The notes under the pieces: model-generated | Database searches by the model: none | Seen by the model: only the letters and a program-made list of their open reading frames with translations | Told to the model about the DNA's origin: nothing | Sequence record: PV357172.2 | Origin: a phage | Reading direction: 5' to 3' (one strand) | Length of the DNA stretch: 64,000 nucleotides | Position numbers and translations under genes: made by a program | Shown: one piece after another, positions 35,551-45,534 of the stretch | Position numbering within the stretch: the first letter of the stretch is position 1 | How the letters are laid out: every line of letters begins with the position of its first letter

Positions 35551-36052
35551 AGAACTGGATAACTGATGCTTTTAACGTAAAAGCTTCCGAGGTTAGTTGC
35601 GCACTGCCTAAACCACGCGGTAGTTGGTTCCAGACTAACCAACCAGTCTGCTGAATAGTTTTATTACGATTTAACTATGCCCAGGCTAAAGAAGAACTTT
35701 AGAAGGTATTCTAGGATAGTGAAGTTCTTTCTCCATATCGGAGTAGTTTTTCAAGCTATCCACAAAGTGGGAAATGCTGACATGAGAGATGTCACTAATG
35801 GTGCACAATAGCACAGGTAATTCGCGATAACCCCTGTTGAGTAGCAGCAAAAGGCGGGAAGTCATGACCCCAAGCCTAACCGAGTCCTCAATATACCGCA
35901 GGACATAACCACTAAGTCCCCCTGACTTAAACTGGAAAATAATAGACGTTACTGTATTTTGTCTTGAAATACTTAATGAGTGAGACTTATGACTCTCCCG
36001 GTATCGTCTGTATTTTTAAGAGTTTTTACGAGAGTTCTTAAAAATACTTAAA

Positions 36053-40966: not shown

Positions 40967-41068
40967 AATTCTGTGTAGAGTTAAGTAAACCGGTAGCCAA
41001 CCAGCTATCATTGCTGACATCGAATTCAGCCACAGATACCATTTTCATTAATAACTGAGGAAATAGAT

Positions 41069-41987: not shown

Positions 41988-42200
41988 AACATCAGAGCAG
42001 CGTGATGTACTGCAAAGACCCAAAGTCCGGGGTGGACTTCTTGATTCAAAGGAGCAGGCACTAATTATCATTCTAGCGTGGTGGAGAGGGGACACCAGCT
42101 TGCCGAGGGTAGAAGCTCGTTCGATTCGAGTGAAAGAATGGTTCTCGTAAATCCGCACAAGTGATAGCAGGTTCAAGTCCTGCCTAGATTGACTTATTAT
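41988..42200 (+). ncRNA. structured noncoding segment with two orphan T-arm-like hairpins (pseudo-tRNAs or small RNA)
   Basis: GCTCG-TTCGATT-CGAGT and GCAGG-TTCAAGT-CCTGC T-arm-like elements with no pairing acceptor stems found; no credible ORF. Confidence 0.3.
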
Positions 42201-42271: not shown

Positions 42272-42587
42272 CCAAATTTAGGTTTCTGCTTCCTAGAGAA
42301 CGGACTCCTAGATAAACAAGGCGATGAGTTTCCGGCCGGTTCTAGTCGCTGAAAATCCTCCCGACCAGGTAGGTGTAAGTAAATGAAAGTTTACTTATTG
42401 AGTAGGTTCCGATAGACCGGCGGGTCTATTCTGGCATTTAAGAGAGGTCTCGCAAACTTCTTTGTCAGCCGTGGGGTTGGTAGCCTCCAGGTGGCCTACA
42501 CAATAAGTAAATTTATTAAAAATTCATTTGCTATTCTGCTTAATTCTCTGTATAATATATTTTATAAAGTGAGTTAACAAAAATTAA

Positions 42588-43460: not shown

Positions 43461-43748
43461 CCAATTTCAAGAAAAACTCAGTTGCTTGATGCTTAATTTC
43501 TTGTTATAATATTTATATAAATTGATGAGGAGAAATCCTCATCATAGTTCACTAAGGTATTAGCTCGACCTAGGACTGGCTGCCAAAAAGCACGATCCCT
43601 ACGATTTGGGAGAAGTTCTAGATTAGTCCACTAGATTCAGCGGCAACTGAATAGTGTATCGGTTTTGCGAGATGACGCGGTTCCTTCCGCTCGAAGCGAA
43701 GGTGCTGTAGTTACGCCGAGCTAATAGCCTTAGTAAACTAAGGAATTT

Positions 43749-43928: not shown

Positions 43929-44513
43929 ATGCAGTTTGTACCAATAAAAGATGCACCAGGGTATTTAGTAAATGAAACAGGGGATGTGTTATCTACATTT
44001 ACTAATAAAATCTTATCAAGATATATAGTTGATGGGTACCCTGCTGTAAAATTACAGATAAATGGTAAGCAAACTTCGGTACTTATACACCGAATTATTT
44101 CTCATGTATTTGGGGACTTATATAATCTATTTGACCCTGAATTAGAAGTAGATCACAAGGATAGAGATAGGCTGAATCTATCTAAAGATAATCTTCAAGT
44201 TTTATCAAAAATAGAACATCAGAAGAAAACTAATAAAGATAATGGATGGTCTGATAGTAGAGTACCTTGCCCCTTATGTGGAAATCTAATGCTTCAGAGA
44301 TCAGTAACATGTACAAATTGTAAGCCAAAACCTACAGGAAAGTTAATAAAACCAGAATTGTCCTTAGAAGACATAACTGAAAAGGTTTTATTAATGGGGT
44401 GGGTTAAGGCAGCTAAAGATCTAGAAGTATCAGAGTCCACTTTACGTAGACGATATACTAAACTAACCGGATTAAGCCCGAAAGTATTAACAGAACAACG
44501 GAAAAGCAAATAG
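43929..44513 (+). CDS. HNH endonuclease with zinc finger and C-terminal HTH
   Basis: HNH region ELEVDHKDRDRLNLSKDNLQVL; CPLCG...CTNC zinc finger; paralog of 41258-41839. Confidence 0.65.
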   Translation: MQFVPIKDAPGYLVNETGDVLSTFTNKILSRYIVDGYPAVKLQINGKQTSVLIHRIISHVFGDLYNLFDPELEVDHKDRDRLNLSKDNLQVLSKIEHQKKTNKDNGWSDSRVPCPLCGNLMLQRSVTCTNCKPKPTGKLIKPELSLEDITEKVLLMGWVKAAKDLEVSESTLRRRYTKLTGLSPKVLTEQRKSK

Positions 44514-44590
44514 ACTGGTGACTAAACCCGATTGGAAATCGGTTGAGTGGTAGCAATACCGCCTTATGGGTTCAACTCCCATCTTTTCCG
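44500..44590 (+). tRNA. tRNA-Ser (anticodon GGA), long variable arm
   Basis: Perfect acceptor GGAAAAG/CTTTTCC, anticodon loop TTGGAAA, T-arm ATGGG-TTCAACT-CCCAT, CCA; 5' end lies inside last codons of HNH gene. Confidence 0.6.
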
Positions 44591-44605
44591 CCAAACAATT
44601 TATAT

Positions 44606-44697
44606 GGTAGGTCAATCCAATGGCTGGCGCTGGACTCCGACTTGAAATCGGTTGATCGTAGTGATACGGTGTAAGGGTTCGATCCCCTTACCTACCT
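44606..44697 (+). tRNA. tRNA-Ser (anticodon TGA), long variable arm
   Basis: Perfect acceptor GGTAGGT/ACCTACC, anticodon loop CTTGAAA, T-arm AAGGG-TTCGATC-CCCTT, CCA. Confidence 0.65.
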
Positions 44698-44955
44698 CCA
44701 AATCTTGAAGTATGCCGGAATCGGTAGACGGGGCTGCCTAAAAGGTTTATAGGGAACATCCACTCCCTGCAACATACCTCATAAAGCGGCTGAGATAAAT
44801 GGTCTATCTCGTGAAGGTTCAAGTCCTTCTGCTTCTTGATACATCTATGGCTCAAAGTGTAACGGTGCTATTTGATGCTCTTGGTAAGACTTCCCCGACA
44901 TGCGTTCGGGAGTAAGCTGCTAAGACTAGAGTAGAAGAGTTTCTGAGAGCCGCCA

Positions 44956-45070
44956 CAATTGAAAATTCGTACTCGTCTTGAGCTGCGTGCAATAGGAGAT
45001 AACTTGATTAGTATTCTAGAACATGCTAATTGAGGATGGTTTCGCTAACCCTGCGAGTTTTCAATTGTGG
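44956..45070. repeat. 14-bp perfect inverted repeat GCCACAATTGAAAA / TTTTCAATTGTGGC separated by about 88 nt
   Basis: Read directly; distal arm overlaps the 5' acceptor of tRNA-His. Confidence 0.5.
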
Positions 45071-45140
45071 CTATATCATAATTGGTTAATGATCCTGATT
45101 GTGAATCAGGCCTATGTGGATTCGAATTCCACTAGCCACC
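45067..45140 (+). tRNA. tRNA-His (anticodon GTG)
   Basis: Perfect acceptor GTGGCTA/TAGCCAC, anticodon arm CCTGA-TTGTGAA-TCAGG, T-arm GTGGA-TTCGAAT-TCCAC, C discriminator, CCA. Confidence 0.65.
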
Positions 45141-45168
45141 CCAAATTAACTTAAATAGGAAATAAAAT

Positions 45169-45369
45169 ATGGCTGATTTCTGCAAGCAATGCTCCCTTGA
45201 TATGTGGGGCAGAGATACTGGTGACTTATCTGGTCTGATTACAGAAGCCGAAGTCAAAGAAGGTTATAGTGCAGTTGTGATTTGTGAAGGCTGCGGTGTT
45301 ATCCGTGTAGACCACACCGGTAAGCGTTTGGAAGAACCAGTTCCAATTGCGCAAGTTCCTGTAGAATAA
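45169..45369 (+). CDS. hypothetical protein (66 aa)
   Basis: ORF track; Cys pairs CKQC...CEGC suggest a zinc ribbon. Confidence 0.45.
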   Translation: MADFCKQCSLDMWGRDTGDLSGLITEAEVKEGYSAVVICEGCGVIRVDHTGKRLEEPVPIAQVPVE

Positions 45370-45377
45370 AAAATTAT

Positions 45378-45450
45378 TGGAGTGTAGCTCAACTGGCAGA
45401 GCGACGGTTTCTGACACCGTAGGTTTCTAGTTCGATCCTAGACATTCCAG
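45378..45450 (+). tRNA. tRNA-Gln (anticodon CTG)
   Basis: Acceptor TGGAGTG/CATTCCA, D-stem GCTC/GAGC, anticodon arm ACGGT-TTCTGAC-ACCGT, T-arm TCTAG-TTCGATC-CTAGA, CCA. Confidence 0.65.
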
Positions 45451-45459
45451 CCAAACAAT

Positions 45460-45534
45460 TGGGGATTAGCTTAGCTTGGCCTAAAGCTTCGGCCTTTGAA
45501 GTCGAGATCATTGGTTCAAATCCAATATCCCCTG
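45460..45534 (+). tRNA. tRNA-Gln (anticodon TTG)
   Basis: Anticodon arm TCGGC-CTTTGAA-GTCGA, T-arm ATTGG-TTCAAAT-CCAAT, CCA; first acceptor pair mismatched in my fold. Confidence 0.6.

What the first reader, a model, noticed from the sequence alone, without database searches (positions are those of the whole stretch)
44700..45070. Noncoding stretch with an orphan T-arm, a tRNA 3'-end-like fragment and a 14-bp inverted repeat clamping the tRNA-His 5' end
Between tRNA-Ser(TGA) and tRNA-His there is a T-arm-like hairpin (GAAGG-TTCAAGT-CCTTC, about 44813-44829) with no matching acceptor. The segment AGCCGCCACAATTGAAAA resembles the tRNA-His 3' end. A perfect 14-bp inverted repeat (GCCACAATTGAAAA ... 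TTTTCAATTGTGGC) could pair the upstream region with the tRNA-His 5' acceptor. This suggests a partial tRNA duplication or a precursor structure that controls tRNA-His processing.
Basis: seen in the sequence. Interest (0 to 1): 0.5.

Follow-up and report, generated by a model that had tools for sequence, protein, structure and literature searches.

The report
Known T5 stable RNAs before tRNA-His
The "noncoding stretch" is the block of three small stable RNAs (RNA1, RNAI, RNAIII) already annotated in phage T5 upstream of tRNA-His. The inverted repeat is a conserved 20-bp RNA helix at the base of RNAIII, and it looks like an RNase III processing site.

Summary
The window is a T5-like phage tRNA operon. 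Positions 44704-45065 match, feature for feature, three misc_RNAs annotated in GenBank for T5 and BF23:
- RNA1, tRNA-like, 44704-44848
- RNAI, 44849-44955
- RNAIII, 44960-45065, 100% identical to T5

All three sequence observations are real. The "orphan" T-arm is not orphan. It belongs to RNA1, a covariation-supported type-II cloverleaf whose anticodon loop is replaced by a 48-nt bulged arm. "AGCCGCCA" is the acceptor-like GAGCC-G-CCA 3' end of RNAI, not a tRNA-His duplicate.

The 14-bp repeat (44952-65 / 45058-71) is the outer part of a 20-bp helix. That helix is kept in at least five unrelated inserts occupying the RNAIII slot in related phages. It shows compensatory changes and G.U pairs, which point to pairing at the RNA level.

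The RNA ends annotated in T5 fall symmetrically about an invariant CAAUUG palindrome and leave 2-nt 3' overhangs. That is the RNase III signature, and it would leave U-1 on tRNA-His. This processing step is inferred, not shown.

Verdict: real, already known as objects, function still unknown.

The parts
44606..44700 (+). tRNA-Ser(UGA), upstream neighbour, with encoded UCCA end
   Evidence: Rfam tRNA-clan hit at 44606-44696. Missed by ARAGORN. Annotated as tRNA-Ser in related phages.
44704..44848 (+). RNA1: tRNA-like stable RNA (T5 'rna1'). It is a type-II cloverleaf with a 48-nt bulged arm in place of the 7-nt anticodon loop, no CCA, and a 12-nt 3' tail.
   Evidence: 85% identical over its full length to T5 RNA1. 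T5/BF23 annotation reads 'tRNA-like stable RNA with unknown functions'. Covariation on alignment A2.
44707..44712 (+). RNA1 acceptor-stem 5' strand, pairing with 44830-44835
   Evidence: Four of the six pairs show double compensatory changes, for example A-U to G-C.
44733..44790 (+). RNA1 extended 'anticodon' arm: stem 44733-37/44786-90, inner helix 44743-46/44776-79, hairpin 44750-55/44764-69 with conserved loop ACAUCCAC
   Evidence: six pairs with compensatory changes across helices 3-5.
44792..44810 (+). RNA1 long variable arm (6 bp)
   Evidence: helix 6: 100% of cells paired.
44813..44829 (+).
   Evidence: The helix is invariant in all 23 sequences.
44849..44955 (+). RNAI: 107-nt stable RNA. 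It is an elongated irregular hairpin closed by GGCUC/GAGCC and ending in G-CCA.
   Evidence: 92% identical over its full length to T5 RNAI. Annotation. Variants a and b share the ends and covary in the interior.
44956..44959 (+). 4-nt spacer CAAU between the RNAI CCA end and the RNAIII 5' end; forms bp 5-8 of the junction helix
   Evidence: Gap between annotated features in T5 and BF23. Invariant in all variants. Geometry.
44960..45065 (+). RNAIII: 106-nt stable RNA with a 12-bp terminal stem, three internal hairpins and a 2-nt 3' overhang
   Evidence: 100% identical to T5 RNAIII. Fold (z = -2.85). Present in 283 phage records.
44952..44971 (+). 5' arm of the conserved 20-bp junction helix. 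It covers the RNAI GCCA end, the spacer and the RNAIII 5' end.
45052..45071 (+). 3' arm of the 20-bp junction helix. It covers the RNAIII 3' end, U-1, and tRNA-His nucleotides +1 to +5.
45066..45143 (+). tRNA-His(GUG): +1 at 45067, encoded C73-CCA, and U rather than G at -1 (45066). T5 and BF23 annotate 78 nt starting at this U.

Best explanation
The stretch is a run of three small stable RNAs co-transcribed with the tRNAs of a T5-like phage. In order they are RNA1 (a tRNA-shaped RNA with an enlarged anticodon arm), RNAI (a long hairpin with a tRNA-like GAGCC-G-CCA end) and RNAIII. All three are already annotated in T5 and BF23, with unknown function.

The inverted repeat is the outer part of a 20-bp RNA helix. 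In the precursor it pairs the last bases of RNAI plus a CAAU spacer with the UCAAUU leader and the first 5 nt of tRNA-His. It continues inward as the terminal stem of RNAIII.

Proposed mechanism (inferred):
1. The helix forms co-transcriptionally, before the tRNA-His 3' strand exists.
2. Host RNase III makes a staggered double cut at the centre of the invariant CAAUUG palindrome, at 44959|44960 and 45065|45066.
3. This releases RNAIII, or whichever insert occupies that slot, with a 2-nt 3' overhang.
4. It frees tRNA-His carrying U-1 and leaves RNAI-CCA-CAAU to be trimmed back to CCA.
5. The RNAI 5' end is probably made by RNase P, which would recognise its helix plus RCCA end.

Shown: identity with the T5 RNAs, the structures, their conservation and covariation, and the geometry of the annotated ends. 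Inferred: the enzyme, the order of events, and any regulatory effect on tRNA-His.
For: Identity:
- The T5 record annotates RNA1, RNAI, RNAIII and tRNA-His in this order. BF23 and T5 st0 do the same.
- The window matches them over their full lengths at 85%, 92% and 100% identity.

Structure:
- RNA1 cloverleaf: 96% of cells paired against 39-50% in slid controls, with 11 compensated pairs.
- RNAI: shared terminal helix plus GCCA, with six covarying pairs between variants a and b.

Helix:
- Inserts IIIa to IIIe are unrelated in sequence and range from about 24 to 133 nt. All keep a roughly 20-bp helix starting at GCCACAAUU.
- 97.5% of cells are paired and nine pairs are compensated, all within bp 10-20.
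- L040 changes G-C to A-U inside the otherwise invariant part and has no RNAIII body at all.
- G.U pairs occur only on the + strand reading.

Cut geometry:
- The annotated ends are symmetric about the palindrome centre and leave 2-nt 3' overhangs.
- This is the in vivo E. coli RNase III pattern, with A-U at both D/D' positions (here bp 4 and 11, both invariant).
- E. coli has no 5'-to-3' exonuclease (established knowledge). No promoter-like site was found on the + strand inside or just upstream of RNAIII. So the RNAIII 5' end needs an endonucleolytic cut inside the helix.

Other support:
- The precursor with the full helix is predicted at -99.2 kcal/mol, against -89.7 with the tRNA-His acceptor stem forced.
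- Precedent: RNase III takes part in T4 tRNA precursor processing (McClain 1979, in the reference list read).
Against: - No experiment or RNA-seq was available. The basis of the RNA ends in the GenBank records is not visible, and the 78-nt tRNA-His may have been drawn by analogy with G-1.
- Bp 1-9 of the helix never vary, so covariation cannot prove that GCCAC pairs with GUGGC. Both strands are independently constrained, one by the RNAI CCA end and the other by the tRNA-His acceptor.
- The two pairs between the inferred cuts are both A-U. Altuvia et al. find at least one G-C there in most in vivo sites.
- RNase P alone could make the tRNA-His 5' end once the tRNA folds.
- The function of the three RNAs themselves remains unexplained.
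Confidence: 0.6

Rival explanations
1. The helix is only RNAIII's own terminal stem. The outer complementarity (GCCAC with GUGGC) is a by-product of a CCA end lying next to a tRNA whose acceptor starts GUGGC. Processing is done by RNase P at tRNA-His and RNAI, together with RNase E and 3' exonucleases. RNase III plays no role and there is no clamp function.
For: - Bp 1-9 are invariant and therefore uninformative. Bp 1 is A.C in L022 and L026.
- Both outer strands have independent constraints.
- The positions between the inferred cuts lack a G-C pair.
Against: - The CAAU/AAUU spacers have no tRNA or CCA constraint, yet they are invariant on both strands and palindromic.
- L040 keeps a 14-bp helix with no RNAIII body and carries a compensated change in bp 10.
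- The annotated RNAIII 5' end lies inside the helix, 4 nt after CCA. RNase E does not favour double-stranded sites (established knowledge).
- The symmetric 2-nt overhang geometry fits RNase III.
Confidence: 0.25
2. The inverted repeats act at the DNA level. They would be boundaries of a recombination or homing hot-spot through which different cassettes are swapped into the slot upstream of tRNA-His, possibly promoted by the HNH homing endonucleases of the T5 tRNA region.
For: - At least five unrelated inserts sit between identical flanks.
- RNA1, RNAI and an extra module are also present or absent in a mosaic pattern.
- HNH endonuclease genes lie in the region.
Against: - Pairing continues into the variable insert sequence with compensatory changes.
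- It uses G.U pairs, which would be C.A mismatches on the other strand or in DNA.
- T5 annotates stable RNAs with ends in the helix.
- This view explains the mosaicism, so it can coexist with the RNA-level explanation, but it does not explain the helix.
Confidence: 0.1
3. One reading: decayed remnants of duplicated tRNA genes (pseudo-tRNAs) with no function of their own.
For: - RNA1 has type-II tRNA features and RNAI ends like a tRNA.
- Neither ARAGORN nor the Rfam tRNA model accepts RNA1.
Against: - RNA1 is conserved across Tequintavirus, Epseptimavirus and Sugarlandvirus. Compensatory changes occur in the acceptor, the anticodon-arm extension and the inner hairpin, and the 8-nt loop is conserved.
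- RNAI shows no cloverleaf.
- All three are annotated as stable RNAs in T5 and BF23.
Confidence: 0.03
4. The region encodes small proteins, as some genome annotations imply with 'hypothetical protein' calls.
For: - Short ORFs exist, for example 44799-44915 (38 aa).
- Several records annotate hypothetical proteins over this stretch.
Against: - The ORFs are 55 aa or shorter and differ between records.
- They span boundaries of modules that are swapped independently.
- The substitution pattern preserves base pairs rather than reading frames.
Confidence: 0.02

Closest known systems
Bacteriophage T5 / BF23 stable RNAs RNA1, RNAI and RNAIII (GenBank AY543070, AY692264, AJ604530)
   Same: Same order, same neighbours (tRNA-Ser1 upstream, tRNA-His downstream) and same lengths. 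Identity is 85%, 92% and 100%.
   Different: Nothing essential differs; the window is another Tequintavirus. The window lacks the small ORF (T5.063) that separates tRNA-Ser1 from RNA1 in T5.
RNase III processing stems, such as the helices flanking 16S and 23S rRNA, T7 early mRNA sites, and the T4 tRNA precursor
   Same: About two turns of dsRNA formed by sequences flanking an excised RNA. The inferred cuts are staggered with 2-nt 3' overhangs, and both D/D' positions are A-U.
   Different: Cleavage was not tested here. Both pairs between the cuts are A-U. One strand of the stem is the 5' acceptor strand of a tRNA, so the cut would create the tRNA 5' end with a -1 nucleotide, a job normally done by RNase P.
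Phage T4 stable RNAs 'species 1' and 'species 2' in the T4 tRNA gene cluster (recalled from memory, not tested here)
   Same: Small stable RNAs of unknown function, co-transcribed with phage tRNAs and matured by the host tRNA-processing machinery.
   Different: No sequence comparison was made. The T5 RNAs are not in Rfam: no family matched 44700-45066 at E <= 10.
Type-II (long variable arm) bacterial tRNAs (Leu/Ser/Tyr)
   Same: RNA1 has a Leu-like D-loop (GGAAUCGGUAGAC), a 3-bp D stem, a 6-bp variable arm and a canonical T-arm GAAGG-UUCAAGU-CCUUC.
   Different: - A 48-nt bulged arm replaces the 7-nt anticodon loop.
- U.U at 1:72, U73 and no CCA.
- Not called by ARAGORN or the Rfam tRNA models.
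- Annotated with its 5' end 2 nt upstream and with a 12-nt tail.

Membership tests
T5-type stable RNAs RNA1 / RNAI / RNAIII | Full-length sequence homology to the annotated T5 features | tested here: met
   BLAST of the T5 features against the window: RNA1 85% (44704-44848), RNAI 92% (44849-44955), RNAIII 100% (44960-45065). Alignment A1.
T5-type stable RNAs RNA1 / RNAI / RNAIII | Synteny: between tRNA-Ser(UGA) and tRNA-His on the tRNA-operon strand | tested here: met
T5-type stable RNAs RNA1 / RNAI / RNAIII | Accumulation as discrete stable RNA species in infected cells | not testable with these tools
   Only the wording of the GenBank notes ('stable RNA with unknown functions'). The primary papers are not in the searchable library.
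RNase III processing stem | About 20 bp (two turns) of mostly Watson-Crick dsRNA | tested here: met
   20 contiguous pairs, 44952-71 / 45052-71. 97.5% of cells paired across five insert types.
RNase III processing stem | Double cleavage leaving 2-nt 3' overhangs | tested here: inconclusive
   The ends annotated in T5 and BF23 give exactly this geometry, centred on the CAAUUG palindrome. The experimental basis of those ends could not be checked.
RNase III processing stem | Base-pair preferences around the cut: A-U/U-A at D/D', and usually a G-C between the cuts | tested here: inconclusive
   D and D' (bp 11 and bp 4) are invariant A-U, which fits. The A/A' positions (bp 7 and 8) are both A-U, which departs from the usual pattern.
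RNase III processing stem | Cleavage depends on RNase III | not testable with these tools
   Needs an rnc mutant or purified enzyme.
tRNA (for RNA1) | Cloverleaf with acceptor, D, anticodon and T arms | tested here: met
   All arms are present and covary or are invariant.
tRNA (for RNA1) | 7-nt anticodon loop presenting an anticodon | tested here: not met
   48 nt lie between the anticodon-stem strands, folded into a conserved bulged hairpin.
tRNA (for RNA1) | Recognised by tRNA detectors; a 3' NCCA end, either encoded or able to be added | tested here: not met
   No ARAGORN call. No Rfam tRNA-clan hit at E <= 10. The acceptor is followed by UUGAUAC, not NCCA.
   The segment is the end of RNAI, which folds as an elongated hairpin with no cloverleaf. 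The shared motif is limited to GCCAC.

The most novel reading that the evidence does not exclude
The invariant palindromic helix is an RNase III site that doubles as a cassette slot. Unrelated structured RNAs (at least five types) are inserted at its tip and released by the same cut. That cut, rather than RNase P, sets the 5' end of the phage tRNA-His at U-1. This would give a tRNA that keeps C73 but lacks an encoded G-1 the extra 5' nucleotide and phosphate that E. coli HisRS needs. tRNA-His maturation in T5-like phages would then depend on RNase III and on correct folding of the upstream RNA.
Probability: 0.2. Interest if true: 0.55.

Novelty: already known. Interest (0 to 1): 0.3.

Why it matters
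As objects these RNAs are not new. They have been annotated in T5 and BF23 for about two decades. They are, however, absent from Rfam and are ignored or mis-annotated as "hypothetical protein" in most of the roughly 500 T5-like genomes.

The comparative result gives a concrete, testable handle on RNAs whose function has never been explained. It consists of an invariant palindromic 20-bp helix, at least five interchangeable inserts, and RNase III-like end geometry that would leave U-1 on tRNA-His.

It also bears on how a phage tRNA-His without an encoded G-1 becomes a HisRS substrate. It matters practically too, because T5 tRNAs are now known to counter host tRNA-targeting defences (from memory), so neighbouring tRNA-like RNAs are plausible decoys.

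Tried and rejected
- Rfam scan of 44300-45500 at E <= 10. Nothing matched in 44700-45066, only the flanking tRNAs.
- ARAGORN does not call RNA1 and misses tRNA-Ser(UGA).
- Seven literature searches for the primary T5 RNAI/RNAIII papers, T5 tRNA-His and a T5 transcriptome. None is in the library, so 'known' rests on three GenBank records.
- RNA1 as a tRNA with a removable intron. No combination of flanking bases gives a sensible 7-nt loop (only AUA or AAA anticodons), the insert is itself conserved and structured, and T5 annotates the unspliced length. Rejected.
- RNA1 as a recent copy of a window tRNA. The best global identity is 0.67, to tRNA-Ser(GCU). Uninformative.
- Promoter and terminator scan. 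No convincing + strand promoter inside the block. The 'terminator-like' hits are the RNA1 T-arm and the last RNAIII hairpin.
- Metagenome scan with the junction motif. Most of the 41 loci were chance matches, and only a handful were T5-like.
- The Klebsiella phage vB_Kpn_3 tRNA-His context was unreadable because of a sequencing gap.
- YrlA / Y-RNA-like reading of RNA1. The topology differs because the ends lie in the acceptor stem, and Rfam gave no hit.

Full report
**What the window is.** The region lies in a dense tRNA cluster with 19 ARAGORN calls. BLAST of 44590-45160 against phage genomes returns several hundred T5-like phages (Demerecviridae: Tequintavirus and Epseptimavirus) at 90-100% identity. 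The T5 record AY543070 annotates three misc_RNAs between tRNA-Ser1(UGA) and tRNA-His:
- RNA1, 144 nt, 'tRNA-like stable RNA with unknown functions'
- RNAI, 107 nt, 'stable RNA with unknown functions'
- RNAIII, 106 nt, same note, directly abutting a 78-nt tRNA-His

The BF23 tRNA-region record and the T5 st0 record carry the same features with the same boundaries. Alignment and BLAST place them in the window as follows:
- RNA1 at 44704-44848, 85% identity
- RNAI at 44849-44955, 92%
- a CAAU spacer at 44956-44959
- RNAIII at 44960-45065, 100%
- the annotated tRNA-His start at 45066

The finding is therefore a rediscovery of annotated T5 RNAs. None of them is in Rfam: no hit at E <= 10 in 44700-45066.

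**Checking the observation.**
- The T-arm-like hairpin is exactly at 44813-44829.
- The 14-bp perfect inverted repeat is at 44952-44965 / 45058-45071. The repeat finder extends it to 18 nt at 94%, and with G.U pairs it is 20 contiguous pairs.
- It is the longest perfect short-range stem in the window. A stem of 14 bp or more turns up somewhere in 6 of 60 dinucleotide shuffles of the whole 64 kb, so length alone is not decisive.
- tRNA-Ser(UGA) at 44606-44696 is real (Rfam), although ARAGORN misses it.

**The 'orphan' T-arm belongs to RNA1.**
- 44707-44712 pairs with 44830-44835.
- There is a 3-bp D stem with a Leu-like D-loop and a 5-bp anticodon stem (44733-37 / 44786-90).
- There is a 6-bp variable arm (44792-97 / 44805-10) and the T-arm.
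- In place of a 7-nt anticodon loop there are 48 nt. They form an inner helix and a hairpin with a conserved loop, ACAUCCAC.
- Across 23 distinct sequences, including Klebsiella Sugarlandvirus versions, 96% of cells are paired against 39-50% in slid controls. Eleven pairs carry compensatory double changes, in the acceptor, anticodon stem, inner helix and hairpin.
- It is not a tRNA by test. It has no anticodon loop, U.U at 1:72 and no NCCA, and neither detector calls it. No choice of flanking bases gives a plausible spliced loop.

**The 'tRNA 3'-end-like fragment' is the 3' end of RNAI.** RNAI begins GGCUC and ends GAGCC-G-CCA. That is a helix plus RCCA, the kind of end RNase P reads (established knowledge). 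The body is an elongated irregular hairpin, not a cloverleaf. Two variants exist in related phages, a (107 nt) and b (100 nt). They share the first 20 nt or so and the last 20 nt or so, and differ inside with six covarying pairs. This is not a duplicated piece of tRNA-His.

**The inverted repeat is a conserved RNA helix.** Related phages show a mosaic. RNA1, RNAI-a or RNAI-b, and an extra module of about 115 nt are each present or absent. The slot between the RNAI CCA end and tRNA-His holds at least five unrelated inserts:

| Insert | Length | Where seen |
|---|---|---|
| IIIa | 106 nt | window and T5; 283 phage records |
| IIIb | about 121 nt | 55 records |
| IIIc | about 63 nt | 65 records |
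| IIId | about 133 nt | 15 records |
| IIIe | about 24 nt mini-hairpin | L040 |

- Every insert type keeps GCCACAAUU...AAUUGUGGC, and every one continues the helix inward to about 20 bp using its own sequence.
- Across eight distinct arm sets, 97.5% of cells pair (31-43% in slid controls). Nine pairs have compensatory changes, all within bp 10-20.
- L040 changes bp 10 from G-C to A-U and has no RNAIII body, so the helix itself is what is conserved.
- G.U pairs appear only when the + strand is read as RNA, which argues against a purely DNA-level element.
- Bp 1-9 never vary apart from bp 1, so pairing of the RNAI GCCAC with the tRNA-His GUGGC is compatible with the data but not proven.
- In a nearest-neighbour model the uncleaved precursor prefers the full helix (-99.2 kcal/mol) over a folded tRNA-His acceptor (-89.7 kcal/mol).

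**How it most likely works.** The ends annotated in T5 and BF23 put one break at 44959|44960 and the other at 45065|45066.
- In the helix these are one nucleotide 3' of the centre of the invariant CAAUUG palindrome on each strand.
- This is a symmetric double cut leaving 2-nt 3' overhangs.
- That is the in vivo pattern of E. coli RNase III. The most constrained positions in that study (D/D', A-U or U-A) correspond here to bp 11 and bp 4, both invariant A-U.
- The fit is not perfect. Both pairs between the cuts are A-U, whereas a G-C pair is usual there.
- E. coli lacks a 5'-to-3' exonuclease (established knowledge) and no promoter-like site precedes RNAIII. The RNAIII 5' end, which sits inside dsRNA 4 nt after CCA, therefore needs an endonuclease that cuts duplex.

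I therefore propose the following. RNase III excises the insert. RNAI-CCA-CAAU is trimmed back to CCA by 3' exonucleases. tRNA-His is released with U-1. RNase III involvement in phage tRNA precursor processing has a T4 precedent (McClain 1979, listed). All enzymatic steps are inferred.

**The tRNA-His -1 position.** The phage tRNA-His has the E. coli-type acceptor GUGGCUA...UAGCCAC-C73-CCA, but U rather than G at -1. This holds in every sequence examined. In E. coli, G-1 is encoded and is kept because RNase P cuts one position early when G-1 pairs with C73, and HisRS depends on that extra nucleotide and its phosphate (established knowledge, from memory). A cut at 45065|45066 would supply a -1 nucleotide independently of RNase P. 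This is the most novel reading not excluded. It rests on the annotated 78-nt tRNA-His, whose experimental basis I could not check.

**Rivals.**
- The helix is just RNAIII's stem and the outer complementarity is incidental. This is plausible for bp 1-5. It explains poorly the invariant palindromic spacers, the L040 mini-hairpin and the end geometry.
- A DNA-level cassette-exchange site. This explains the mosaicism and may coexist with the RNA-level view, but it does not explain the G.U-containing compensated helix.
- Decayed tRNA duplicates. Contradicted by covariation and by the stable-RNA annotation.
- Small ORFs. They are inconsistent between genomes and cross module boundaries.

**Verdict.** The elements are already known as T5 RNA1, RNAI and RNAIII, and their function is still unknown. 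The added value here is the comparative evidence for an invariant, palindromic, roughly 20-bp processing helix with interchangeable inserts.

Noticed in passing
window 45066-45143: The phage tRNA-His keeps the E. coli-like acceptor and C73 but has U, not G, at -1. T5 and BF23 annotate it as 78 nt starting at this U. It is unclear how it becomes a good HisRS substrate.
   Followed up: partly
window 44606-44700: tRNA-Ser(UGA) is missed by ARAGORN but found by Rfam (37.6 bits to the tRNA-Sec model within the tRNA clan). It is annotated in related phages.
   Followed up: yes
window 40969-41041, 42069-42193, 42402-42502, 43558-43729: The other T5 'stable RNAs of unknown function' are also present: RNA3 (100%), RNA2 (90%, tRNA-like), RNAIV (97%) and RNA2H (98%). 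Each ends in a terminal helix plus a short single-stranded tail (ACCA, ACA, CA, GCC), unlike RNAIII.
   Followed up: partly
window 43929-44513: A 194-aa ORF sits at the position of the T5 hegC (HNH endonuclease F-TflI) gene. It overlaps the first 14 nt of tRNA-Ser(GGA). Homology was taken from annotations of related records, not tested here.
   Followed up: no
L026 1343-1455, L028, L036: Some Epseptimaviruses carry an extra noncoding module of about 115 nt between RNA1 and RNAI (AAGTGCTTCTAATGACC...CCATCCCATCATCAAT). Its nature is unknown.
   Followed up: no
L037 / L038 1190-1330 (Klebsiella Sugarlandvirus): An RNA1-like element has the same extended arm (hairpin GCAGA/UCUGC, compensated) but a different, weaker acceptor. 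It sits in a different context, with no tRNA-His, RNAI or RNAIII nearby.
   Followed up: partly
window 36010-36047: A perfect 12-bp hairpin (GTATTTTTAAGA...TCTTAAAAATAC) ends 5 nt upstream of tRNA-Arg(UCU). It may be another processing or terminator hairpin.
   Followed up: no
window 45169-45369: A 66-aa ORF with two CxxC pairs (zinc-ribbon-like) lies immediately after tRNA-His. It is conserved in position as T5.062 in T5-like phages.
   Followed up: no
phage database hits H28, H163: Short or odd records labelled 'Listeria phage LM 4-14-1' and 'Campylobacter phage A148' carry this T5-like sequence at about 99-100% identity. They are probably mislabelled or contaminated entries.
   Followed up: no
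window 44849-44868 and 44936-44955 (RNAI): The internal-loop sequences AAAGWGUAACGGUGC and GAGUUUCKGA are invariant in both RNAI variants while the distal hairpin is replaced. This suggests a protein-binding or tertiary motif.
   Followed up: no
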